Shown: positions 5,441 to 64,000 of the stretch, piece after piece
How the letters are laid out: each line of letters opens with the position of its first letter
How positions within the stretch are numbered: position 1 is the first letter of the stretch
Assembly: GCA_951406725.2 (NCBI GenBank)
Contig: OX597816.1
Span: forward strand, 78,554,001-78,618,000
Direction: 5' to 3'
Length of the DNA stretch: 64,000 nucleotides
Source of the DNA: Octopus vulgaris
Taxonomy: Eukaryota
Notes under the pieces: generated by a model
The model's database searches: none
The model's input: the letters and a program-made list of their open reading frames with translations, nothing else
What the model was told of the DNA's origin: nothing
Program-made: the position numbers and the translations under genes

Positions 5441-6089
5441 TTTGACTATGTTCTCCAATTTGAGCTTGAGAAAAGGAAATGAGGATCTGCACAGAGTACA
5501 TTGGATCATGAGCAATCCATATGTAATCACTCATCATGGGGTTCTTTTTGAGGCAGTGTTTTTCAGCTTGTTGCCCTTCCTGATTGTGACCCTTTTAACC
5601 ACCTCTTATGATATGTTGCAATACAGTGTACCTATTCCAAATTGGGATATATGTAATTTATACTTTTGTTGGTAAGGAAAAAAGAAGTTTCTTTATGATA
5701 TTTCATTGTAATGAAACATACATAGTACCTATACATTCATAAGATGAAATCATTTTGAGTATTGTCTACTAAATGTGCAAATATTGTGAAAAAAGATAAG
5801 CACAAGGGAATCATGAAAGCACATGTATTAATGAGAGTGAATACTGGATAGAGGTATAGCTGAGTGGGAAAAAATTAATTAATGAGAAGAAATGCCTGTA
5901 GAAGAAGCTAAATATAGACCTGAAAGGAAATAGCTAAATTAGCACCAAAAATCTTGAGTTTCATAGAAAAAATTATGCAATATTGATAAGCACTGAGAAA
6001 TAGTTTATGGCAGACATCTCCAGTACATGTTATCATGGAGATATAAATATTGAAATAGCAAATAATTTAAATGTTGAAAGACATTTCAC

Positions 6090-6224
6090 CTTCATATGTT
6101 CCTTCTGAATTATCAATTGAGGGTATATCGCCAGACATTCCAGTAGATATCCACCATGCATTTTCTGGGTGACTTTTACAACCACACATATTAGTATCTT
6201 CAAAATCACATGAAAAGTATATTG
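6090..6224 (-). CDS. Exon: MAM domain 5, N-terminal part (PIYFSCDFEDTNMCGCKSHPENAWWISTGMSGDIPSIDNSEGTYE)
   Basis: aatttcag| acceptor, GAAG|gtgaaa donor, 135 nt, phase 1-1; canonical CDFE-x4-CG...W...PxxD..GT. This frame is absent from the ORF track. Confidence 0.92.
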
Positions 6225-8006
6225 CTGAAATTCAGAATAAGTTAAGATCAGTAAAGGAGCAAATAGTGACAATGACAATATTCCTGGTATTTCAATGATC
6301 TATCAGTAATCTAATGATTGATTATTGAACTTAGTTTCATTAGTATAAAATTTAGCTTGCAATTTTACATTTCATTAGTAATATAGATAACAATAGTAGT
6401 GATAGAAAGCTTAAACCATTATCCGAATTAAGCTTTTGAATCTGAACATAGAGACACTTTCTGTGAGCATATTTTTGCATGTCAGATCAGTTGTAATTTG
6501 TTTGTAGAAACAAAGTTTATTGTAGTTAGAAAGAAGTTATGAATTTTATTGTGGACTTGAAACCACCCCAGACTCTAAATCTGTAAATAGATGTGTTGGC
6601 CACAAAGCAAAATTATTTCCCCACATTTCTTTTTTTAATTTAAAGATATATCTGTAACAGATAGGTTATCAACATACTTATAAGTGTGAAAAATACATAT
6701 TTTGAAGCAAACTCATATGAAGCAACTGTGTATTCACAAACTGTACTAAGTGATATGACAAGCTAGATGGTGCAACCAATAATGGAGAGAAAGGGAGAGA
6801 GAGAGAGGGGGGTGGGGGAAGAAAAGAGAGAAAGAGAATGTGGTTGGGTTGTTTGGTTTCTTAGACATAGCAACAAATTTTTATCAAATCACATTTTCAT
6901 GTCTTAAAGAAAAGAGGTTCACATTAGATAATCTCTCTATATATAAACGGCAGTTTGTCTGTGCGTGCTTCTGTGTGTCTGTTTTCTCGTACCCTCACCC
7001 TGACCACGGCTTTCAACCGATTCTGATGAAACATGACACACACATAGCCCAATGTCATAATTCAAAACTAACGCAGCGAAAATTTTGAAAAGTTCCCCCA
7101 GTTCTGAAAAAATTGATAAATTCGACATGGGGTCGAGAATCATAAACACGAACCGCAGACTGTCTAGGGAACGCAACTCGAGAATCTAAGCTTTTTTTAT
7201 GCAACGCATTATCTATGGTAGTTTTCACAACTTGCAATCGATTTTCACCAAACTCATGGTGAAGCTTAATGTTACCCTAAGAAACTCAATTCTGACGTTA
7301 GTTTTCCATGCAATACCTTACCATCAGAAACAATCGATAAAATCATGCCATTTTGGGAAATCGCGTTCAAATTCAAGATGACATATTTTCGACAATATCT
7401 TTCACAAATTGGCAGGAATCTTTTTTTTTTTCACAACGAGCATCATGTCTGCTCCAAGGAGCTATATAGCCCTTTTTATTCCAATAGGATACATTATTGG
7501 AAAAAATCGGTTAATTTAATCATATGTGGCACACATAGCAAACAAATTTGTGTATTAAACACAAACCAGACTGTCTAGGGGACGCAACTTGACCTTTTTA
7601 GCTATCGATAATTCGATCCAACCAATTCCTACTAGGAAGAAATTACATTCGAGACTTTACCCCCAACACCGCCACTTCTGCTAATAGCTGCTGCAGCCGC
7701 AAGTTATTCGAGTACTTTTTTTGTTTAAACTTTCTTTATAACTACCACCCCAAACGTTTTACCTTCAATTTTTGACGTACCCTAACGGTCCTCGGACGCT
7801 ACTTGCAAACTCTTGGTTTATTATAAACCACTTTTGTCGTGTGCATCAAAAAACTTTTCCTTTCGTTTGTTCAGTTTGATCACTTTTGACATTTTCGTTG
7901 TTGTCACTCACATTGCTGCCAGCTTTTTGGCCGTTTTTGTACATTTTTATACATTTTCGGATACTTACCCCACGAGCTCCTTTTTATTACACCTTTACCA
8001 AACACA

Positions 8007-11000
8007 TTGCTATCCACCAAAATACTTACCCCACGTGTTCCTTTTTATTACACTGCTTCTGCTAGGGCTTCAGATGGTGCTGAGGCGAGAGCTGAAAGGC
8101 TTTCAAGGGATGCCACTGCTACCGCTGTCGCACGTGCATCTGAATCTGCTGAGGCACGGTGCACTCGACTTGAGAGTATCAACAAACGTCGGGATATCAT
8201 TCGTGGTGTACGTACCCCTGCCCCCGCTTTCTGGTTGTCACTAGCATTCAACTACGACGCCACAATTAACTTCTCCTTGTGTGACGACATCAAGATAGGG
8301 TCAATGACAATTGTATGCCAGTTTTGCAAAGCCAAGAAATGGCCCGGAGAGCCACCTGGTTTGTGCTGCTCTGGTGGCAAAGTGGACCTGCCACCCCTAC
8401 GGGAACCACCTCAACCACTGAAGGATCTCGCGGCGGGTTTAACCCCCGATTCGTCACAATTCCTTGAAATAATTCGAAAGTACAACTGCTCATTCCAAAT
8501 GACCTCTTTCGGGGCCAAAATTCCTCCCAGAGAAGGCTGGATGCCTACTTTCAAAGTGCAGGGACAGGTCTACCATCTTATTGGGTCACTTCTGCCAGAC
8601 GAGATTCAGCAGTCTTCTTTCCTCCAAATATACTTCATTGCCGACTACAACCACCAGGTTGATGCACGCCTTGGAATAATACCGGGTACAAGCTATGTTC
8701 CCCGCAAAGACATTCTTCTCCGTCTCCAAACCATGCTTCATGATATCAACAGCTACGTCTGCAGCTTCAGATATGCCTTGGACAGTGCTCCATCTCCAAA
8801 CTTCACCGTTGTCATTGATGCTGATAAACGACCCCACGGGGAGCACGAACGCCGTTTCAACGCACCTGCGTGCAACGAAATTGCCGCAGTCATACACGGA
8901 GAGCAACACAACAGCCGTGACATAATGATCTCCTCCCGTGGTAACAACCTACACAGGATCAGTGAGACTCACAGATCTTATGACGCGCTTCAGTATCCAT
9001 TGCTTTTCCCTTATGGGGAAGACGGCTGCCACTTCGGAATTCCTTTACGGCAGCCCTCCAATCAAACTACTGCGGCATCAAAGACGGTTTCCTGCAGGGC
9101 GTTCTACTCATACCGGTTCATGGTCAGGGAGGTTGAGTTTAACTTATTGCCCCGTTGTCGTCAGCTATTCAACCAGTTCGCCGTCGACATGGCCGCAAAA
9201 ATGGAATCGGAAAGGCTGCTATATATTAAACTTAATCAGACCAAACTTCGCTCCGACTCCTACATTCATCTCCGTGACGGTTTGCAACAAGAAAATGACC
9301 CTCGCAACATCGGCAAGCCATGCATTCTACCCTCCACCTTCACGGGAGGACCGCGATATATGCGTGAAAGGACCCAAGACGCCTTGACCTACGTGCGCAT
9401 TTACGGCCGGCCGGACCTCTTTATCACCTACACGTGCAATCCCAGCTGCGACGAAATCACTCGCGAACTCCTCCCGGGTCAATCTCACACCCATCGACAC
9501 GACATCGTTGCTAGGGTTTTCCGTCTGAATTTGGGCAAAATGAAGGATTTGATAGTTAAGGGTCAGATTTTCGGGCATGTCAGGTGCCACATGTTTTCGG
9601 TCGAGTGGCAAAAGAGGGGCTCGCCACATGCTCACATCTTAATTTGGCTCACTCATAAAATCGAGACTAATGACATTGACAAATTCATTTCCGCCGAGAT
9701 TCCTGATCCCGATGAGGACCCCGGACTCTACGAAATTGTCCGCACTACCATGGTACACGGGCCCTGTGGACCAAATTACGCCAACACACCATGCTACAAA
9801 AACGGATTAGCCTGCTCAAAGGGATTCCCTAAACGGTTCACTTTGGAGACTCAAACAGGCGGCGATGGGTATCCGCTGTACAAACGAAGGAGTCCAGCCA
9901 ATGGAGGCCGCACGATTACGGTTGGGCGACATCAAGTGGACAACAGCTACATTGTCCCCTACTGTCCTCTCCTGTCGAAGATATTCAAAGCCCACGTCAA
10001 CGTTGAGTTCTGCAGCTCCATCAGGTCAATACAATATGTCTGCAAATATATCAACAAAGGCAGCGATGCTGCCATGTTCAGCATCCAGAGGACCACCAGT
10101 CGCGACGAAGTGTCCAACTACTTGGCTGGCCGGTACCTCAGCAGCAACGAAGCGTTTTGGCGCAATTACGGCTTCCCGCTCCATCAGAGACACCCGGCTG
10201 TGGTGCAGCTTGCTGTACACTTGGAAAATGGACAGCGGATTTACTTCACAGAGCAAAGTGCTGTGCAGATAGCCACCAGCCCTAAAGACACAACGTTGAC
10301 TGGTTTCTTCAAATTATGCCAACGTGATGACTTCTCTCGAACGCTTTTGTACCCACAGGTCCCATCGTACTTCGTGTGGTCTAAAAACACCTGGGTTCGA
10401 CGGAAATCCGGCAAAAACGTCGAAAGCTTCCCAGGCGTCAAGTTTGACTCCTGCCTGGGTCGAGTTTACAACATCCCGCCAAACCAGCAAGAATGCTTCT
10501 ACCTCCGTCTCCTTCTACATGAGGTCACTGGTCCAACAGGTTTCGCCAATATACGTACCGTCAATGGGGTTCTGTGCGACACCTTCAGGGAAGCATGTAT
10601 GAGACTTGGCCTTCTAGAGGATGACTCCCAGTGGGACGCCACGATGGCAGAGGGTGCTTTACTGCAAACGCATTCGGCCCTACGACATCTTTTCGCAATC
10701 CTTCTTCAAAAATGTCAGCTTAGTGATCCACTAAGTCTCTGGATGAAATACAGGGATGACATGTCGCACGACGTCTTACGTACGGCTCAGCAACACTGCC
10801 CTTCCGCCGAGATCACGTTCACCAACTTCACTTACAATTTTGCGCTCATTCAATTCGAAGACGCTGTCATCGATATGGGTGGGTATGCTTTAACAGAGTA
10901 CGGCCTTCCACCACCCACACGTGAACACGCCAATGTTATGTCTGCTGAATTGTTACGCGAAACTTCCTACTGCATTGAGGAACTGCACCAGTACGTCCAA

Positions 11001-12383
11001 GATAATGAACCACGGCTGCTTCCAGACCAGCGCATAGCCTACAACACCATCGTAGACTCTGTCAGACAGCAACGTGGGGGGATTTTCTTCCTTGATGCAC
11101 CCGGCGGCACTGGCAAAACCTTCGTCACTAAACTAATTCTGGCAGAGGTCAGACGCAACACGGACATTGCCCTGGCTGTAGCTTCCTCTGGTATCGCGGC
11201 CACGTTGCTTCCGGGTGGCAGAACCGCCCACTCTGCCTTCAGACTCCCGCTCGATCTGGCAAAGTCCGAGTCACCTATCTGCAACATTGCCAAGAACTCA
11301 GAACAGGCCGACATTCTGCGCAGATGCAAACTCATCGTATGGGACGAGTGCACTATGGCACACAAAGGCGCCCTTGAGGCACTGGACAGGTCCCTGCAAG
11401 ACATCAGAGACTCTACGGCCCCCATGGGAGGATTAACTTTACTTCTTTCAGGAGACTTCAGGCAGACTCTACCTGTTATTCCAAAAGGAACCCGTGCCGA
11501 TGCCGTGCGCGCGTGCCTTAAGTCGTCAGCTCTTTGGGCACATGTGCGGCCCTTGCACCTCCAAACTAACATGCGCGCGCAGTTAATTGGTGACAGCGGA
11601 TCCGCTGCATTCTCCAGGGACCTCTTATCGCTCGGTGAAAATAGGATGCTGTCTGATGCGGATGGCTACGTTCAATTTGACTCACTTTGCACCATTGTCG
11701 ACACCCCTGCTAGCCTCCGGGACGCTGTCTTCCACGACCTACAAAACAATTTACGCGACCTAAAATGGCTGGCAGGCAGAGCTATTCTCGCACCCAAAAA
11801 TACAACCGTCAACTCCATCAATATCCAGCTACTTGAAGCTATTCCTGGTGATGTCCACGTCTACAAATCTATAGATAGGACAGCAGACCCCGCCCAGCTT
11901 GCCGATTATCCTGTTGAATTCCTGAATTCACTTGAACCGCCAGGCCTGCCACCACACATCCTGAAGTTAAAAGTCGGTGCGCCCATTATGCTCATCAGGA
12001 ATTTGGTTCCACCTAAACAGTGCAACGGCACACGTTTGGTTGTGAAACATTTGGCACCACATTTAATAACGGCCACAATACTTACCGGTTGTGAGAAGGG
12101 AGAGGACGTCTTCATTCCACGGATGCACCTTCAACCGTCGGGCGCTGACCTACCAATCCACTTCAGGCGTTCTCAGTTTCCTGTTAAACTCTGCTTCGCA
12201 ATGTCCATCAATAAATCCCAAGGCCAAACGCTACAAGTCGCTGGGTTACATTTGGGCGAACAGTGCTTCGCTCACAGTCAACTCTACGTGGGCTGTTCAC
12301 GCGTTGGGAGGCGCAAAGATGTTTTCATGTTTTCGCCCAAACGGACAGCTAGGAACATCGTATATACAGAAGTATTCCAGTGA
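8007..12383 (+). CDS. Helitron RepHel transposase (HUH-Y2 Rep endonuclease + PIF1-family SF1 helicase); open frame 1458 codons, first in-frame ATG at 8304 (1359 aa)
   Basis: Zn motif CQFC...CCSGG; Rep motifs PDLFITYTCNP, VEWQKRGSPHAHILIW, YVCKYINKG; helicase motifs DAPGGTGKT, IVWDECTM, GDFRQTLPV, CNGTR, QFPVKLCFAMSINKSQGQTL, HSQLYVGCSRV. Confidence 0.96.
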   Translation: MLSTKILTPRVPFYYTASARASDGAEARAERLSRDATATAVARASESAEARCTRLESINKRRDIIRGVRTPAPAFWLSLAFNYDATINFSLCDDIKIGSMTIVCQFCKAKKWPGEPPGLCCSGGKVDLPPLREPPQPLKDLAAGLTPDSSQFLEIIRKYNCSFQMTSFGAKIPPREGWMPTFKVQGQVYHLIGSLLPDEIQQSSFLQIYFIADYNHQVDARLGIIPGTSYVPRKDILLRLQTMLHDINSYVCSFRYALDSAPSPNFTVVIDADKRPHGEHERRFNAPACNEIAAVIHGEQHNSRDIMISSRGNNLHRISETHRSYDALQYPLLFPYGEDGCHFGIPLRQPSNQTTAASKTVSCRAFYSYRFMVREVEFNLLPRCRQLFNQFAVDMAAKMESERLLYIKLNQTKLRSDSYIHLRDGLQQENDPRNIGKPCILPSTFTGGPRYMRERTQDALTYVRIYGRPDLFITYTCNPSCDEITRELLPGQSHTHRHDIVARVFRLNLGKMKDLIVKGQIFGHVRCHMFSVEWQKRGSPHAHILIWLTHKIETNDIDKFISAEIPDPDEDPGLYEIVRTTMVHGPCGPNYANTPCYKNGLACSKGFPKRFTLETQTGGDGYPLYKRRSPANGGRTITVGRHQVDNSYIVPYCPLLSKIFKAHVNVEFCSSIRSIQYVCKYINKGSDAAMFSIQRTTSRDEVSNYLAGRYLSSNEAFWRNYGFPLHQRHPAVVQLAVHLENGQRIYFTEQSAVQIATSPKDTTLTGFFKLCQRDDFSRTLLYPQVPSYFVWSKNTWVRRKSGKNVESFPGVKFDSCLGRVYNIPPNQQECFYLRLLLHEVTGPTGFANIRTVNGVLCDTFREACMRLGLLEDDSQWDATMAEGALLQTHSALRHLFAILLQKCQLSDPLSLWMKYRDDMSHDVLRTAQQHCPSAEITFTNFTYNFALIQFEDAVIDMGGYALTEYGLPPPTREHANVMSAELLRETSYCIEELHQYVQDNEPRLLPDQRIAYNTIVDSVRQQRGGIFFLDAPGGTGKTFVTKLILAEVRRNTDIALAVASSGIAATLLPGGRTAHSAFRLPLDLAKSESPICNIAKNSEQADILRRCKLIVWDECTMAHKGALEALDRSLQDIRDSTAPMGGLTLLLSGDFRQTLPVIPKGTRADAVRACLKSSALWAHVRPLHLQTNMRAQLIGDSGSAAFSRDLLSLGENRMLSDADGYVQFDSLCTIVDTPASLRDAVFHDLQNNLRDLKWLAGRAILAPKNTTVNSINIQLLEAIPGDVHVYKSIDRTADPAQLADYPVEFLNSLEPPGLPPHILKLKVGAPIMLIRNLVPPKQCNGTRLVVKHLAPHLITATILTGCEKGEDVFIPRMHLQPSGADLPIHFRRSQFPVKLCFAMSINKSQGQTLQVAGLHLGEQCFAHSQLYVGCSRVGRRKDVFMFSPKRTARNIVYTEVFQ

Positions 12384-12477
12384 AGACAAGACATTGCAAC
12401 GTCCACATGCACCTTCGTTCCCTGGAGGGAAAGGACTACATTGGGATTAGTCGTTGCCTACTAGGGGCTCTTACATA

Positions 12478-12505
12478 CCCGGGCAACGCCGGGCTATGCT
12501 GCTAG
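12478..12505 (+). other. Helitron 3' terminal hairpin and CTAG end
   Basis: CCCGG-GCAACG-CCGGG (12478-12493), 8 nt spacer, then CTAG|T. Confidence 0.92.
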
Positions 12506-12633
12506 TGTAGTATAAATGAATTATATCTGAACAAAAAATAAAATGAACAGAGTGGTTCCATCTGATAATAGATTTGTTTGGTCAGATTTACTTGATAAAA
12601 CATAATTATCATAAAATAAATAACTATCTTCAA

Positions 12634-12870
12634 ATCATCATCGTCATCATCTTTTAATATCCATTTTTCATGCTGGGATGTGTTGGATGGTTTGATTAGA
12701 TTTGATCAGTCTGAGTGCTGCACCATGTACTAGTGTCTGCTTTGGTATGATTTCTATAGCTGTAGGCTTTCCCTAATTCCAACCACTTCACAAAGTGTAT
12801 TGGGTGCCTTTTACCTGACATCAGCATTCGTGAGGTCACAAGACAGCTTACAAGACTAAAATTTTTCAAC
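12634..12870 (-). mobile_element. RTE-related 3' end fragment with (GAT)n tail
   Basis: Plus-strand CATCATC...TTCATGCTGGGATGTGTTGGATGG...CCAACCACT motif shared with the RTE 3' ends at 42027, 46500, 57498 and 61618. Confidence 0.65.
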
Positions 12871-13911
12871 AGAGTGAGGCTACAGGAGAAAAAGATAGAT
12901 TTTATGCAAGAAGATTAATTCTAATAGTTTGAATCTTGTTTTAATCTGGTTTCTCTCTCTCTCTCTGTTGCATCATGGATGAGTTGTTGTCAAAGTTCTT
13001 CAACACAAGAAGGCAATACTTTGGCTAATGACATGCATGTATCTATTTAAAAGATACTAAATAATAGCCAAATACTATTTCATTTATCAAAGATGTCTGG
13101 TAAACTAGAACTTTCACAATTAGCTTCCATACTATAAGAAGTTTTAATCTTGGTAGTTTAAAGGGAGCTAATATGGCTGTCAGCAACCAACTATTTTGTA
13201 TAACACCAGGGTGACATTAGGATCCATTATGATCTGTATAATAATTGAATGATATACTCTTGATTCTGATAGGTTCTTGGAGGCTTTGTAAATATTTTGC
13301 TGTTTGAGAGTATCAAGAAAATGATAGACAAAATACTTTATAGTATTGAGTTATATATATTGCTTTACATTCTTAGGTTAACCTTGCCTTTTATTCTTCT
13401 GGGTTCAATAAAATTTTCAATTAAATAGTTAGGTTCATACATTTGTTTATATCCATTAGTCCAAATTTGTGACACTGTGCATATGTGAAAAATAAATATT
13501 ATTGAATGATTTATGTGTAATGAAGCAAATTATTCATTTTATCTTCTAACTGTAAGTTTTTTCCTGTAATGGGAAACTTGCATGAATTTGCTAAAATATG
13601 AAAGAAAGCTCTTTCAGTTGAGTATAATCATGTGATATTATATATATTCATATGTAACTGTGTAATGACATAGTTATATACATGCACACACGTTCATATG
13701 AGTGCATAATTACTGAAGCAAACAGATCATTTAAACACAATACTTTTGCAAACATCAAAGTATACATAAATGCATCCACACAAACATGTGCAAGTATACA
13801 CATATAGAAAGATATACATACTTATATTAAAAAAAAGCATACTTAAAGCAAATTAAAATACTTTAAAAAATTAATTCTTTTTTGAACAAAATGACATTAA
13901 GTTTTACTTAC

Positions 13912-14022
13912 GACAATTTGCTTCATCACTGCCAGTAATGCAATTTTCGTAATTGTTACACAGATTTTTTTCATTGATACATTTTGAATTGTCTAAACAT
14001 TTATGGCTATACTTTGGACAAT
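13912..14022 (-). CDS. Exon: LDLa module 2 (NCPKYSHKCLDNSKCINEKNLCNNYENCITGSDEANC)
   Basis: aattacag| acceptor, TGTC|gtaagt donor, 111 nt, phase 1-1, six Cys, GSDExxC. Confidence 0.92.
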
Positions 14023-14129
14023 CTGTAATTGATAATAATAATAATAATTGTTGATTAAATGTCAAAATATCTGAGCTGAATTGTTAACAAGATTATAATT
14101 CCCCAAACTATCAATCTTATTTTTAGATT

Positions 14130-15147: not shown

Positions 15148-16121
15148 ACCTATATTCATTAAGCTTGACACAAATTAAATGTCCTAATATTTGCATTACA
15201 TTACATCCAGCTGTGTCAACATATTTGAATTTTGATATATATCTGTTGTGATAAAACATAAAACTAGATAATGTTGCAAAATGTGACCTCCCTTCTGTAC
15301 CAACATGGCTCCAACAGCAAAAGTTAGCTGTAGGGAAAGTGCAAATCAACCCAGCAAGCCAACTTACCCAAAGAAGAAGTCATGCACTGCTGGGTGTCTT
15401 CAAAACATGCATCTTGTGGAATGTAGTTCTTTGTTAATTAGTTTTACGCTGACTTCTGTTTACCACTCCCCTACACACAGAGACTAGCTGTCCTTATATA
15501 CTTGTACATTCATCTAGAATCTTCTAAAGAGTCATGTTATGTTGTATCTTTTAGAACTTTATTCTGAACCAATTAATTTCCTAGTTGCTAGGAAACCCAT
15601 ACAGCACCTGACCTATGAGACATGTCATTTATCATGTGACACAATTCTGGAATTTTCTCTGATACTCTAACATGATACAATATTATAGAATGATTACACA
15701 GGAAACTAAACAATATTACATAATTATTACTCAGAAAACTAAACACCTTTACCAATTTACCAGAGAATATCATAGATAATACAAACAGAACTTATTCTCT
15801 CTTTCATAACAATATGGTCACCCTACAACAAATAGAAACAAACATTGCATATTTTGAAACTGCTCACTACATACTGTCTGGTAGGTTTCCCACCTCTCAG
15901 TGTATTTTGGTACCTAAACATTTAGTAGAAACATATGGTACTTGAGTAACTTCCTAGGAATTAAAAGCATAGATTTTCAAATTTGTTGTTTTTGCTTAAC
16001 TTCAGTTCTGATTGAGCAGATCTATGATGAAAGCTGTTCTGAATGTGATCAATGATCAAAATTATGAAAATAAAAATCAAAACTATGAAAAGTCAAGAGT
16101 AAATAGAAATGAATTACTAAC

Positions 16122-16445
16122 TTAATTCAGGACAGGTTCCATTATAAATGTTGACACTATTAATTGCCAGTCCCCCGGTCTTGATATCTGCAATGAATGT
16201 AAGAAAACTTGTCCCTGCTGGAAGCTGGAATTGTCCTTCATATGTTCCATCTCTTAGACTAAAGAAATATTCATTCCAAGCAAGATGACGTGAAACATCT
16301 CCATTAGAGTTCAACTGATTTAAAATAACTGAGAAATTCCCAGTTAGTGCAAAAGCTGTAGTAAACTTGAAATTCACACATGAATCTGCCAATGTTTCGA
16401 TGGGTGACAGCATTTTCCCTTTTGTTCCTATAATCTGCATACTAC
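16122..16445 (-). CDS. Exon: MAM domain 4, C-terminal part (GSMQIIG...MLSP...SCVNFKF...LAINSVNIYNGTCPEL)
   Basis: atttacag| acceptor, TTAA|gttagt donor, 324 nt, phase 1-1; LSP, CVxFxF and terminal GxC MAM motifs. Confidence 0.9.
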
Positions 16446-17159
16446 CTGTAAATCAAAGAATATTATCAGAAATATTAGCAGAATTACTGAATTGCAAAGC
16501 AAACAATTGAATGGGTGAAAAGTCAGAGTTTCTACCTTTTCTTCAAAAATAAGTCCTTATTTGTTGAAACATTAGCAAATAAGTTTACTGTTTCTTCCAA
16601 CAAATAAAAAATTTCAAATTCCAAACAGAAAGCTTTTTCATCAAACGGACTGTTCCTTATTTTAGCTTTCTCTGACAATATGCAGATAAGAGACAAATGT
16701 TTCTCTAGCTAGGATGCTGTCAGTTACAAGTAAATTTTCTTTTATGATAAGCTGAACCATGCAGTCCAACGAATTAATTTTACAAATCACTTTTCCAAAG
16801 CAGCCATTAACAGATTATATTCTTCTGCAATACATCTATATATCGTATTTGCCAGCATGTAAGATGTACTCCTTTTAAACAAGTATATATTTTGAAAAAA
16901 ACAACAAATTTAATATGTTTCTTCATGCACTCATATACCATCTGTAACCAAAAGCTAAGACACAGTGTGCTCCAGAGTGGGAGTGAATTTGGAGTCTTAT
17001 AATTGAGAAGCAAACTTCTGATACAGTTGGCCATGTATGCATAAAATCCAGATGGGGATAGCAAAAAATATTGCAGGCATTAAGCATTATCTAGGATGCT
17101 AGATGATGCAAGGAGTACTTGAGTGAAACAGAGAGTGAGGGAAAAGATCATGAAATGAG

Positions 17160-18177: not shown

Positions 18178-19562
18178 GCAAAAGCAAGGTCTAGAATGAA
18201 AGGGCATTAGAGTTAATTTAGCAAAACTCCAAATCTTAATAAGTAGGAAAGCTGACAATTTCCAAATCCTTTCAGGGAGATGGCCCTGCTCGATATGTAG
18301 AAGTGGCATAGGTAGAAACTCCATAACTTGGTGCAAGCTATGGACACATATGAGGTGCAGAAATATCAGACGAAGGCTAACAAGGAAAATAGTCTTTGTG
18401 TGTGGCAGATGTACAGGTACAATAAACACTAGAAATTAGAAATAATATATTTCTAAATCTCTCAGAGCAATTTATGCAGTAGCAGCACGATAAAATGATA
18501 GCATGTTGTCAACTTAATGTGACAGTCCCATAAAAAGGAAGAATGCTACTGTTATTTATCCCTAGGAAACACCATTTCCTAGGGCTAAATAACAGTAGCC
18601 TTCTTCCCTTTTATGGGACTGTCACATTTAGTTGACAACATGCTATCACTTTAACACTAGAAATGTACAGAAAATAAATTTCGTGAAAAGTTATGAGTGA
18701 TACTTAGAAGTAGTTGATAGCTTTTGAATCTGGGTGACCAATTCAGTTGTCGAGATGAATGCTCTGAGCGCATAGGTGCTAGAATAAGAATAAGCTGGGT
18801 AAAGTTCAGAATGTTTCTACCTTTGTTGGTAGCAAAGGCCTCTCCCTTATAATGAAAGACAGATTGTATGATACCTGTGTGTGAACAACCACACTATACA
18901 GCAGTGAAACATGGGCTGTGACTGCAGAGGACATGCAAAAACTTGAAAGAAATGAAGCTAGTATGCTTTGCTCTATGTGCAATGTTAGTCTCCATGAATG
19001 ACAGAGTGTAAGTGTCCTGAGAGAAAAATTAGGCATAAGAGGTATCAGATGTGGTGTGCAAGAGAGAAGACTATGCTGGTATGGCCACATGATGTGTATG
19101 GATGAGGACAGCTGTGTAAAAAGTGCTGATCTCTAACTGTGGAGGGAACTGGTTGAAGAGATAGACCCAGGAAAACATGAGACAGGGAGGTGAAGCATGA
19201 TCTTTAAATGTTGGGTCTCATGAAGGTGATGACAAGTGCTTGAGACCTTTGGTAATTTTCCCTGTTTGAGAAGTCTCATCAAGCCAAATGAAATCAGTTG
19301 TAGCTAGAGCCAGTGACTCTTAAAAGGTATCCATGCTGGTGTTACATGAAAGACACCTGTGCCAGTGACTTGTAAAAGGCACCAGTGCCAGTGACACATG
19401 AAAGGCACCCACTAGACTCTGAGAGTCTAGGAAGGGTATCCAATCATAGAAACTCAACCAAATCAAATTGGAACCTGGTACAGCTCTCCAAATTACCAGT
19501 CCCAGTCAAACTGTCTAACTCATGCCAGCATGGAAGACAGATGCTGATTGATGATGATGATG
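18178..19562 (+). mobile_element. 5'-truncated RTE LINE (RT C-terminus, PHD-like finger, 3' UTR, (GAT)n tail), interrupted by a 216-bp insert
   Basis: WPCSICR...LWTHMRC...FVCGRC, SETWAVTAEDMQKLERNEASML, RRLCWYGH, tail GATGATGATGATG near 19550. Confidence 0.9.
18491..18653. repeat. 163-bp palindrome (79-bp arms, 5-nt loop CACCA, 5 mismatches)
   Basis: 18491-18569 is the reverse complement of 18575-18653; it lies in an insert flanked by the duplicated 12-mer AACACTAGAAAT (18425-18436, 18653-18664). Confidence 0.97.
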
Positions 19563-21262: not shown

Positions 21263-21289
21263 AGTTGTAAGTTACCGCACAAGTGAAAA

Positions 21290-21608
21290 TATATATGAAA
21301 GAAGGTTTGAAAAGGCAATTTTAAAAGGTTTTTATTCACTTGACCGGTTTCACTGTTTTAGAAAAAGATTGTCAAAAGTAACATGTAAAAGCTTGGTTGT
21401 GTTAGGTACTGGTTGTCACAAAATACTGCAATACATATATACATTCTTTAATAACAAGAACATGTTAGAACAGTTTACATGTTAGAACATGTAAGAACAG
21501 TTTACAAGGGAAAATCTTACTTTTGACAATCTTTTTCTAAAAAAGTGAAACTGGTAAAGTAAATAAACATCTTTTAAGATTGCATTTTCAAACCTTCTTT
21601 CATATATA
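21290..21608. repeat. Fold-back element with about 90-bp inverted arms ending in (TA)n; possible Penelope-like pLTR remnant
   Basis: 21290-21381 is the reverse complement of about 21517-21608; arms carry GAAACnGGT and AATAAA; the loop has short AGAACATGTT/AGAACAGTTTAC repeats. Confidence 0.8.
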
Positions 21609-21643
21609 ATTCCACTCATGCAGTACCTTACAATTCCACTTTG

Positions 21644-25049: not shown

Positions 25050-25463
25050 TAAACACACACACATTAATATATAGAGGGTGCAAAGTAGCACCAGCAATTA
25101 CTAAAAATATGAGTCAAAATTACTCTAAAAGCCACAAAACACACAAACCTCATTATATTTACTGGAAGCAGGCAAAACAAGCTAAAACAATCTTTCCCTT
25201 GTGAGATAAACTCACAAAAAGAAATAGTTGGACAAAGCTTTATCATGTGATTTCGAAATCTAACCATTAAGGTGTTGTTTCTCCTCAGAAGCATCTACCA
25301 ACCACTCAGGATTAAAGATATAGCTTACCTTGTAATATTACATGAGGAGAGAAAACCGTTGGTAAGCAAGCGCCAAAATTCAAATGGCTAAAAAGCATAT
25401 TATCAATATGAGAAGATACTACAATGATATATTAATATATCAAGATATATTAAACACATTATA

Positions 25464-25714
25464 TTGGGTTGGTGAATATTTATTGCGGCTTTTTTTCAAC
25501 AAATTTTATTCAACAAAAACAATAACAACATGTAACAAAAACATCTTTAAATGATTATTCCAGAGCATATACACCATCTACTTCAATTACTGCTTCTCAT
25601 TTACTTGGCAGACGGTCAGATCATCATTTAAAGATGTTTTTGTTAAATATTGTTATTGTTTTTGTTTAATAAAATTTGTTGAAAACAAGCTGCAATAATT
25701 ATGCACCAACCCAA
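25464..25714. mobile_element. Mariner-derived fold-back MITE
   Basis: TA|TTGGGTTGGTG...CACCAACCCAA|TA; inverted arms about 90 bp; the centre holds a transposase C-terminus remnant on the minus strand (LPSK*EAVIEVDGVY). Confidence 0.88.
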
Positions 25715-25905
25715 TAGAATACGTGGCTTGCTAGCAATTAAAAACCAAAAGAGAATTAATAGATAAAAGGTGCTAGTTTTCTCGAGAGTTTACCATTTGT
25801 GCAATAACATTTGCCACATCAATTATATAATGAAAGGAAAGAAAACATCTTTTATTAAAAAGATATATGGCCATGAAAAAGATAATGGACAAAATAAACA
25901 CTTAC

Positions 25906-61636: not shown

Positions 61637-64000
61637 GTTTAACGTCCGTTCTCCATGCTAGCATGGGTTGGACGGTTCGACCGGGGATCTGGGAAGCCAG
61701 AAGGCTGCACCAGGCTCCGGTCTTATCTGGCAATGTTTCTACAGCTGGATGCCCTTCCTAACACCAACCACTCCGTGAGTGTAGTGGGTGCTTTTTACGT
61801 GCCACCTGCACTGGTGCCAGGCGAGGCTGGCATCGGCCACGGTCGGATTGGTGCATTTTATGTGCCACCTGCACGGAAGCCAGTCGAAATGGCACTGGCT
61901 TCAGCCACGATTCGGATAGTGCTTTTTACGTGCCACCGACACGGAAGCCAGTCGAGGCAGCGCTGGCATCAGCCACGATTCGGTTAGTGCTTTTTACGTA
62001 TCACCAGTCTAGGGGTCCCGGCAACTCTAGCCGTTACACTTTCAGCACACCCACCCCCACTACTGACTTGGTCACCAAAATAACGGAAGCTATCAACTAC
62101 TTCTAGTTTTTCCCCCTGGAAAGTGACGGAAGTTGTTTTCTGCGGATTTTCAGAGGTTAATGCTCCCGAGCATCTGCCACATACAAAAACTATCTTCCCA
62201 GTTAGCCTTCCTTTGACATTGCTGCACCTCTTATGTGTCCATAGCTTACACTGGGTACATCTTATAGAGTTTCTACCTACACCTTTTCTACAGATCGAGC
62301 AGGGCCATCTTCCTGAAGACATTTGTGGATTGTCTACCTTCCTACTTATTAGTACTTTGGTTTTAGCTAGGTTGACTCTAAGGCCCCTCGATTCTAGACC
62401 CTCCTTCCACACCTGGAACTTCTCCAGTTCTGATAGTGACTCAGCAATTAGAGCAAGGTCGTCAGCATATAGGAGCTCCCAGAGGCAACTTGTCTTGAAT
62501 TCCTCCGTAATTGCCTGGAGGACTATGATAAATAGGAGGGGTCTGAGTACTGAACCCTGGTGGACCCCAACCTCTACTTTGAATTCTTCTGTGTACATGT
62601 TGCCAACCCTAACCTTACTTATGGCATCCCTGTACATGGCTTGCACAGCCCTCACCAGCCATTCATCTATTCCTAGTTTCCTCATTGACCACCAGATAAG
62701 GGATCGGGGGACCCTGTCAAAGGCTTTCTCCATGTCAACGAAAGCCAGGTACAGCGGCTTATCTTTGGCTAGGTATTTCTCCTGCAGCTGTCTCACTAGA
62801 AATATGGCATCAGTGGTGCTTCTCCCTGGCATGAAACCAAACTGCATCTCGTCCAAGTTGACTCTCTCCCTAATCAGTTGGGCTATGACCCTCTCTGTAA
62901 CCTTCATTATCTGATCCAACAGCTTGATACCTCTGTAATTATTTGTATCTAGGGCGTCTCCTTTACCTTTGTAGCAGTTGACTAGTATGCTGCTACACCA
63001 TTCATTGGGTATGACTCCTTCGTGTATCACCTGGTTAACTATATGGGTGACTAGGTTATAGACGACACTGCCAGATATTTTGAGCATCTCTGCAGTAATT
63101 CCTGATGGGCCTGGGGCTTTCTCTGTCTTCATGCTTCTAATTGCTTTAACTAGCAAAGAATTGTCAACTCGGATGGCTGGTCCCTCTGTTGGGTTGACAT
63201 TTGGCAGACTCTATCCCATTCATTTTCTTTATTCAGCAACCTTTCATAGTGGCATTTCCAAACCTCTCTCTTTGCGTCCTCATTTAGCGCAAGTGAACCA
63301 TCATCCATGCGGACACATTTCTTTCCTACCACATCACGATTCTCTCTCACACACTGTCTTGCAACACAAAATACCTCAAGTCTTCCATCCTCACGGCGCA
63401 GAACATTGGCAAATTTTTTCTTATCCGCTTCCCCTCTGGCTAAATAAACCTGTCTCCTAGCTTCCCTTCTGGCTGTCTGATACAATTCCCTGCTACCACC
63501 GTTCTTACAGTCCCTTCAAGCCTGTTTCTTTTGTCTAATAGCCCTGTCAACCACATTGTTCCATCACCACTCTGGGTTGAGATGGGACTTTGCTCCATCC
63601 ACAGATCTGGTCAGTGGCTGTCAGCAGATTGTCTCGTAGAAATCTCCAGTTGTCTTCCACATTAAGTGAAGCTATATCCCCTTCTATTTCGTCAAAGGCT
63701 TCGAGTAGTATGTCTCTAAATCTCTGTCCATTTGCAGGATCTTTAAGCTTCCAGACCCTTCTCCTCCAAGCTGGTCTTCTTCTGGGCAACCATTTAGCTC
63801 TGATCCTGATTTCGCTAACTACTAATCTATGTTGAGGAGTACATTCTTCGCCTGGAAAGGTTTTGGCATTTATAAGCAGCCCTCTTTCCCTCTTTCTAGC
63901 GAGGATGAAGTCAATCTGACTAGTGTGTCTGCCAGAACGGTAGGTGACTAGGTGAGAGGTGGGTTTCCTGAAGTTGGTATTGCAAACCATAAGGTCATTT
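61618..64000 (-). mobile_element. Young RTE LINE (EN C-terminus, RT with YADD, PHD-like finger, tandem 3' UTR), running off the window
   Basis: Frameshifted ORFs 63547-63990, 63150-63485 and 61984-63156: SQIDFIL, NYRGIKLL, FVDMEKAFDRV, GVHQGSVL, LLYADDL; the coding C-terminus is deleted. Confidence 0.95.

What the first reader, a model, noticed from the sequence alone, without database searches (positions are those of the whole stretch)
6932..12505. Structurally complete Helitron with an uninterrupted RepHel frame, the only intact element in the window
Seen: both termini (A|TC, hairpin-CTAG|T) and a 4.4-kb intronless frame with the HUH histidines, both catalytic tyrosines (YVCKY), Walker A/B and the PIF1 motifs; it lies antisense in a host intron. 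Every other TE here has stops, frameshifts or truncations. Known: most genomic Helitrons are non-autonomous or decayed. Inference: a very recent insertion from an active or recently active, compact family, and a candidate for a reconstructable rolling-circle transposase.
Basis: partly seen in the sequence, partly recalled or inferred. Interest (0 to 1): 0.72.

Follow-up and report, generated by a model that had tools for sequence, protein, structure and literature searches.

The report
Crippled passenger of young octopus Helitron
This rolling-circle jumping gene in an octopus gene's intron has lost its start codon and the front end of its enzyme, so it was likely copied here recently by intact relatives elsewhere in the genome, which makes the family, not this copy, the candidate for a still-mobile element.

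Summary
The Helitron is real, but this copy is not intact. Termini (A|TC, hairpin-CTAG|T), RepHel motifs and the antisense position in an intron of an octopus MAM/LDL-receptor gene all check out. However, 23 of the 24 best-matching sister copies are about 6.14 kb and encode or encoded a 1,623-aa RepHel. The window copy lacks 571 bp holding the start codon, a PKKRR nuclear-import-like motif and most of the 23-aa STPR repeats. It also has four extra changes at near-invariant residues, and its substitutions are neutral (6 synonymous of 22). One twin with the same deletion lies on another chromosome, 4 substitutions away. The empty site is seen in 2 of 4 other runs laid. The copy is therefore most likely a non-autonomous derivative moved in trans very recently. 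The family is young (about 0.35% from its majority); 7 of 43 full-length copies examined keep an open frame; an older wave is linked to it under purifying selection. It is a canonical HLE1 Helitron. Recently active octopus Helitrons are already tabulated in print. The scan has notes on other Helitron STPR arms in this genome, none on this copy.

The parts
6932..12505 (+). Whole Helitron (HLE1) copy, 5,574 bp; internal-deletion derivative of a 6.14-kb family
6931..6957 (+). Target A (6931), 5' TC and left terminal sequence; a 26-mer of it occurs exactly 3,070 times in the genome
6932..8049 (+). Non-coding left arm (about 38% GC) with two short direct repeats (7156/7567; 7961/8022); its first 250 bp are shared with short non-autonomous derivatives
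8050..8053 (+). Deletion junction: 4-bp microhomology ACAC; 571 bp missing, including the start codon, the PKKRR motif and most STPR repeats
8054..8198 (+). Remnant last two 23-aa STPR-type repeats (Pfam STPRs 21 bits here, below the cut-off of 27; 62 bits in the intact N-terminus); two out-of-frame ATGs at 8074 and 8110
8304..12383 (+). Longest possible product from the first in-frame Met: 1,359 aa, starting 4 residues before the zinc-finger cysteines; stop at 12381-12383
8316..8369 (+). Zinc-finger-like CxxC...CC motif
9102..9644 (+). Helitron_like_N (PF14214, E 2.4e-51), ending in the HUH motif at 9624-9641; Leu>Ser at 9621 (Leu in 119 of 120 homologues)
10035..10049 (+). Y2 catalytic motif YVCKY, both tyrosines present
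11019..12305 (+). PIF1-type SF1 helicase (PF05970, E 3.5e-63): Walker A 11103, Walker B 11340, motif VI 12279; Gly>Ser at 12276 (Gly in 117 of the 117 homologues with a residue there), private to this copy
12474..12506 (+). Subterminal hairpin (12474-12497), CTAG end (12502-12505), target T (12506)
6085..6224 (-). Host exon after the intron (MAM and LDL-receptor class A domain protein); AG acceptor at 6226-6225
13912..14023 (-). Host exon before the intron (LDLa-like by its cysteine pattern, my reading); GT donor at 13911-13910

Best explanation
This is a canonical Helitron whose transposase gene has lost its start codon and front end through a 571-bp deletion, and which was likely copied into this intron very recently by transposase made from intact copies of the same family. 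Shown: the deletion, intact termini, neutral decay, a twin at an unrelated site, open-frame relatives, and the empty allele in other runs. Inferred from Helraiser biology: a full-length RepHel nicks at the 5' TC, peels off one strand, stops at the hairpin-CTAG and inserts the copy between A and T. Only the ends are needed in cis, so broken copies ride along. Inferred order: an ancestor lost 571 bp by microhomology-mediated joining, gathered about 26 neutral changes, and was then duplicated once, roughly 0.1 My ago on a borrowed clock (range 0.03-0.26). I put the chance that the family still transposes today at about 0.55.
For: Deletion of 571 bp against 23 sisters; ATG and about 178 codons gone. 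Exactly 2 copies carry the junction, on different chromosomes with unrelated flanks, and they differ by 4 substitutions in 5,574. Window changes are 16 non-synonymous and 6 synonymous, matching the neutral expectation of 29% synonymous. Four changes at columns at least 95% conserved in 120 homologues beyond those the family shares, against 0-3 in the seven open-frame copies. The two ATGs nearest upstream of Met139 are out of frame. Other broken lineages also multiplied: clades sharing a stop at codon 1022 (7 copies) or an early frameshift (8 copies), four copies ending at the same breakpoint, and 0.4-0.8-kb mini-elements. Empty site read precisely in runs X1 and X7. T follows CTAG in 68 of 68 ends and A precedes TC in 54 of 56. 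Cross-mobilisation of non-autonomous elements is shown for Helraiser (PMC4778049, passages).
Against: The folded core from Met139 on is complete and aligns to Helraiser from about residue 117. Helraiser's first 110 residues are reported disordered (PMC13286980, passage), so loss of function by the deletion is inferred, not measured. All HUH, Y2 and Walker residues remain. Some of the 4 twin differences could be assembly error. X6 and X9 showed no contig across the site among the rows displayed. No head-to-tail junction was found in the assembly with one pattern (0 matches).
Confidence: 0.87

Rival explanations
1. The window copy is itself autonomous: a shortened 1,359-aa RepHel starting at Met139 moved it and its twin.
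For: Stop-free frame, catalytic residues present, core aligns to Helraiser over 1,345 aa; 13 of 120 database homologues have 10 or fewer residues before the zinc finger, though these may be truncated gene calls.
Against: No PKKRR motif or STPR arm; out-of-frame ATGs upstream; neutral N/S ratio; hits at invariant positions; only 2 copies of this form against 132 sites with the native start context.
Confidence: 0.05
2. Same anatomy, but the family has already stopped moving; the young copies and the segregating insertion are leftovers of a burst about 1 My ago.
For: Most copies are broken (36 of 43 full-length copies lack a complete frame); star-like tree at about 0.35%; insertions can segregate for long in large marine populations (general knowledge); no circles shown.
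Against: Pairs at distinct sites differ by only 4-7 substitutions in about 6 kb (window/L031, L046/L047, L034/L048); two open-frame copies carry no extra change at conserved columns.
Confidence: 0.4
3. The young wave entered by gene flow or horizontal transfer from another octopus lineage rather than by local reactivation.
For: In run X8 (coded organism D) five element contigs, 3,287 bases, differ from the window only at the window's own private sites, while one flank contig differs at 21 of 512 bases. Selection is visible only between waves (31 S, 29 N; p 2.5e-4), not within the young wave. The ORF is 52% GC in a 36% window.
Against: Older copies 3-5% from the young majority, and one intermediate copy (L089, 1.8%), lie in the same genome. 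The flank figure is one haplotype at one locus spanning a microsatellite, and X8 shares flank variants with other runs. The best protein match elsewhere is only 58%. Organism labels are coded.
Confidence: 0.15
4. The deletion or the twin is an assembly artefact or a segmental duplication.
For: Segmental duplicates do occur in this family: L037, L042 and L044 share a left flank.
Against: The twin has unrelated flanks that stop exactly at the termini, shares 26 private changes and the same junction, and differs at 4 sites.
Confidence: 0.02

Closest known systems
HLE1 (canonical Helitron/Helitron1) as defined in the HELIANO paper (PMC11417382, passages)
   Same: 5' TC, 3' hairpin plus CTRR, insertion between A and T, single RepHel; that paper lists STPRs among domains almost exclusive to HLE1.
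   Different: Nothing in kind. This copy is a non-autonomous internal deletion; subgroup e-i not determined.
Helraiser / Helibat1 transposase (PDB 7LCC; PMC4778049, passages)
   Same: E 5e-259 over residues 135-1479; same HUH, Y2 and SF1 helicase order; TC/CTAG ends with a subterminal hairpin.
   Different: Helraiser was rebuilt from an extinct bat family. The octopus family is far younger, keeps natural open frames, and has about 260 residues, mostly 23-aa repeats, before the zinc finger. Its hairpin is shorter.
Heli1Xen1 of Xenopus laevis (PMC12001565, passages)
   Same: Young animal Helitron family with an uninterrupted ORF copy and insertion polymorphism; activity inferred only indirectly.
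   Different: Horizontal transfer was shown there; here it is not. Three autonomous insertions there, against tens of full-length copies here.
Feng8/Xuan of wheat (PMC13286980, passages)
   Same: An autonomous copy drives non-autonomous copies in trans, the relation inferred here.
   Different: Activity was demonstrated there (transcripts, circles, new insertions); its gene has seven exons, this one has no intron.
Recently active Helitrons of Octopus vulgaris (PMC13282606, passages and one supplement row)
   Same: Lists 8 families, 178 insertions and 765,802 bp at 2% divergence or less; this family is probably among them (not checked).
   Different: The passages seen give counts only: no structure, open frames or polymorphism.

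Membership tests
HLE1 (canonical Helitron) | 5' terminus begins TC | tested here: met
   6932-6933; boundary fixed by sister copies and by the empty site
HLE1 (canonical Helitron) | 3' hairpin followed by CTRR | tested here: met
   CTAG at 12502-12505; hairpin folds at -6.9 kcal/mol but z is only -1.06; 1,123 exact 3' ends
HLE1 (canonical Helitron) | Insertion between A and T without target duplication | tested here: met
   Empty allele joins 6931 to 12506; 54 of 56 and 68 of 68 ends conform
HLE1 (canonical Helitron) | RepHel: HUH plus two tyrosines fused to a PIF1-type SF1 helicase | tested here: met
HLE1 (canonical Helitron) | Transposase falls in the HLE1 clade | not tested
   No tree against HLE1/HLE2 references; only similarity to Helraiser
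HLE1 (canonical Helitron) | Circular intermediates with CTAG-TC junction | tested here: inconclusive
   0 head-to-tail matches in the assembly with one pattern; joint table showed 15 of 47 rows
HLE2 (Helentron/Helitron2) | Terminal inverted repeats, T|T insertion, often an endonuclease domain | tested here: not met
   No inverted repeat pairs the two ends among 13 found; A|T target; no EN hit
Autonomous Helitron (this copy) | Complete RepHel ORF from its native start codon | tested here: not met
   571-bp deletion removes the ATG and about 178 codons
Autonomous Helitron (this copy) | Conserved residues kept, purifying selection | tested here: not met
   16 N to 6 S, neutral; 4 extra changes at near-invariant columns
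Autonomous Helitron (this copy) | Expressed and able to mobilise | not testable with these tools
   Needs copy-specific RNA reads and an assay

The most novel reading that the evidence does not exclude
The 6.14-kb family is a naturally active animal Helitron. Unmodified open-frame copies still drive thousands of non-autonomous elements in living octopuses, its master lineage has stayed under purifying selection across at least two waves and possibly moved between octopus lineages, and derivatives such as this one, which lack the STPR arm, are ready-made controls for what that repeat arm does.
Probability: 0.45. Interest if true: 0.58.

Novelty: new member of a known kind. Interest (0 to 1): 0.3.

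Why it matters
For this copy: a caution that a long stop-free frame with both termini does not show intactness; only sister copies reveal the missing start. For the family: the one animal Helitron with shown activity in the papers read here is a rebuilt bat element, and the wheat paper calls direct evidence of real-time mobility scarce. A family with natural open-frame copies, segregating insertions and an STPR arm would allow tests of natural Helitron regulation, and is a source of structural polymorphism in octopus introns.

Tried and rejected
Head-to-tail junction search in the assembly: 0 matches with one exact pattern; circles would not be expected in an assembly. Expression: no RNA holder listed on record. 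Read depth as copy number: not used, as the tool warns. X6 and X9 have no cover at parts of the left flank, so they give no verdict on the site. Recent horizontal transfer from a distant animal: best of the 120 listed proteins is 58% identical (only 7,944 candidates were scored), and the 20 holder runs fall under four coded labels, of which the three non-A runs laid also cover the host flank; not supported. A simple single-invasion model was dropped when older copies turned up. The script count of 3 open frames was wrong: L070 and L077 (1,645 aa) end in a shifted frame and L065 (1,600 aa) is in frame, so the corrected count is 2 of 20. The Helraiser cryo-EM paper was not held. No structure prediction was run, because a solved homologue covers the core. 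Literature searches were made; no listing describes this family by itself, but subscription papers and repeat databases are not covered, and bioRxiv supplements could not be seen.

Full report
Observation. The window reads A|TC at 6931/6932 and hairpin-CTAG|T at 12505/12506. A stop-free frame runs 7890-12383, 1,497 codons, with Helitron_like_N (E 2.4e-51), PIF1 (E 3.5e-63) and Pif1 2B hits. It matches the Helraiser structure 7LCC at E 5e-259 over residues 135-1479. Thirteen exon matches of an octopus MAM and LDL-receptor class A protein lie on the minus strand; one database protein, labelled Octopus vulgaris by its source, is 100% identical over the exon searched. The element sits antisense in the phase-1 GT-AG intron 6225-13911. 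Other TE frames in the window are short reverse-transcriptase pieces.

The copy is not complete. A search of the own genome scored 25 of 4,273 candidates. Of the 24 other copies, 23 are 6,120-6,146 bp and one is 5,576 bp. Against the long form the window lacks 571 bp, joined at a 4-bp microhomology at 8050-8053. The lost piece holds the start codon of a 1,623-aa frame beginning MPPKKRR and about 178 codons of 23-aa repeats, which score as Pfam STPRs (62 bits, cut-off 27; the window's remnant scores 21). The first in-frame Met left is at 8304, four residues before the zinc finger, behind two out-of-frame ATGs. In 120 homologues the median length before that cysteine is 149 residues; 13 have 10 or fewer. 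Reading PKKRR as a nuclear-import signal is my recall; Helraiser is described with a putative N-terminal one (PMC4778049, passages).

The frame is decaying neutrally. The window differs from the majority of the 23 long copies at 29 sites; 22 are in the coding part, 16 non-synonymous and 6 synonymous, against 29% synonymous expected from the family's own mutation spectrum. The chance of no stop after 22 such changes is 0.37. Four changes hit columns conserved in at least 114 of 120 homologues: Tyr>Cys at 9027, Leu>Ser beside the HUH at 9621, Ala>Ser at 10335, and Gly>Ser just before helicase motif VI at 12276. Against over-reading: the family as a whole departs at about 16 of 339 such columns, the seven open-frame copies add 0 to 3 of their own, and the folded core from Met139 is complete.

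It moved recently. The deletion junction occurs exactly twice in the genome. The twin (L031, contig C9) has unrelated flanks, shares 26 of the 29 changes and differs by 4 substitutions and 2 single-base indels. With the clock implied by PMC13282606 (0.09 = 25 My; passage) that is about 0.1 My, range 0.03-0.26; the clock is borrowed and assembly error would make it younger. In contigs of public runs, X1 and X7 continue from the left flank straight into the right flank, the precise empty site (match checked). X1 also has a 51-base contig across the filled junction (29 + 22 letters, below the tool's 31-letter bar for bridging). X6 and X9 gave no verdict in the rows shown. X4 has a contig that stops matching at 6931 and runs on for 95 letters, and X2 appears to stop there too, which fits the empty site, but those letters were not displayed. 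One of these runs may be the source of the window and would not be independent.

The family. Exact matches number 3,070 for the 5' 26-mer, 1,123 for the 3' 25-mer, 132 for the start-codon context and 201 for a helicase motif, with 0 for each control. I fetched the 40 start-context sites on contigs C1-C4 not yet held (47 there in all, of 132): 20 are full length by my criteria and 2 of these have an open frame (L065, shorter by three repeat units' worth of codons, 69 bp, in frame; L091), after correcting the script's count. With 5 of 23 in the first set, 7 of 43 full-length copies are open; in the less biased C1-C4 set it is 4 of 47 sites. Broken lineages have multiplied: seven copies share a stop at codon 1022 (three of them segmental duplicates), eight share an early frameshift, four end at one breakpoint, and ten of ten sampled short elements of 0.4-0.8 kb share both ends at about 85-95% identity, one left end at 70%. 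Fifty young copies average 0.35% from their majority, seven older ones 3.8%, and one full-length copy is intermediate at 1.8%. Within the young wave changes are neutral (private 84 S of 285; shared 40 S of 118; 48 copies, two duplicates dropped). Differences shared by six old copies against the young majority are 31 S to 29 N (p 2.5e-4), which indicates purifying selection on the lineage that links the waves.

Mechanism. Shown: anatomy, deletion, neutrality, twin, empty allele, open-frame relatives. Inferred from Helraiser (PMC4778049, passages): the left end is essential in cis, the hairpin ends copying, circles are intermediates, and non-autonomous elements are moved in trans. The window copy needs only its ends, and it has them. 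Whether the family still moves today is open; I give it 0.55.

Comparison and novelty. By termini, target and domain order this is HLE1 (PMC11417382, passages), where STPRs are already noted; clade placement was not tested by a tree. Young animal families with an open frame and polymorphism are known (Heli1Xen1, PMC12001565, passages), real-time activity is shown in wheat (PMC13286980, passages), and recently active Helitrons are counted for O. vulgaris (8 families, 178 insertions; PMC13282606, passages). Five searches (listings only, apart from the papers cited) showed no description of this family. Earlier scan notes concern STPR arms of other Helitron copies in this genome; whether they are this family was not checked, and none covers this place or sequence.

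Verdict. A real, very young, non-autonomous copy of an ordinary kind of element, in a family worth testing for present activity. New member of a known kind; interest 0.30.

Noticed in passing
run X8 laid on window 6400-13000: The dominant element sequence in coded organism D equals this genome's young-family majority over five contigs (3,287 bases), while one host-flank contig differs at 21 of 512 bases; a weak hint of gene flow or transfer between octopus lineages.
   Followed up: partly
L060, L064, L067-L069, L073, L079, L089: An older wave of the same family (3-5% from the young majority) plus one intermediate copy; differences between the waves are enriched for synonymous changes (31 S, 29 N).
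   Followed up: yes
L066, L083, L084, L086: Four copies stop matching at the same family position (3180), a second amplified deletion lineage of about 3.2 kb; for L066 a 3' end follows within about 45 bp.
   Followed up: partly
L037, L042, L044 (G000:C7:58.76-58.97 Mb): Three copies share a left flank and differ by 2-4 bases: segmental duplicates, not separate insertions.
   Followed up: partly
L065 and L060/L067: Length changes within the STPR repeat region (L065 lacks 69 bp in frame; L060 and L067 show an internal repeat offset), so the arm changes in repeat number.
   Followed up: no
L031-L054 flanks: Many copies sit in (TA)n microsatellites; the window copy does not.
   Followed up: no
L089 and L096: A piece of the element's 3' region lies inside or before the 5' arm, suggesting nested or chimeric ends.
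   Followed up: no
window 16120-16446, minus strand: A host exon matched by two octopus homologues (P0122 at 89%, P0126 at 60%) is missing from the same-species protein P0124: likely an annotation miss or exon skipping.
   Followed up: no
window 61987-63999, minus strand: Broken reverse-transcriptase element with a PHD-like cysteine cluster after the RT domain; related fragments at about 22.5-24, 35 and 49-50 kb.
   Followed up: no
window 18491-18653, 21265-21633, 25458-25720: Three self-complementary (palindromic) stretches, probably MITE-like elements.
   Followed up: no
runs X1, X6, X9 at window 6915: A short piece of the left flank (about 6884-6915) is shared with another locus, so primers for genotyping should avoid it.
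   Followed up: no
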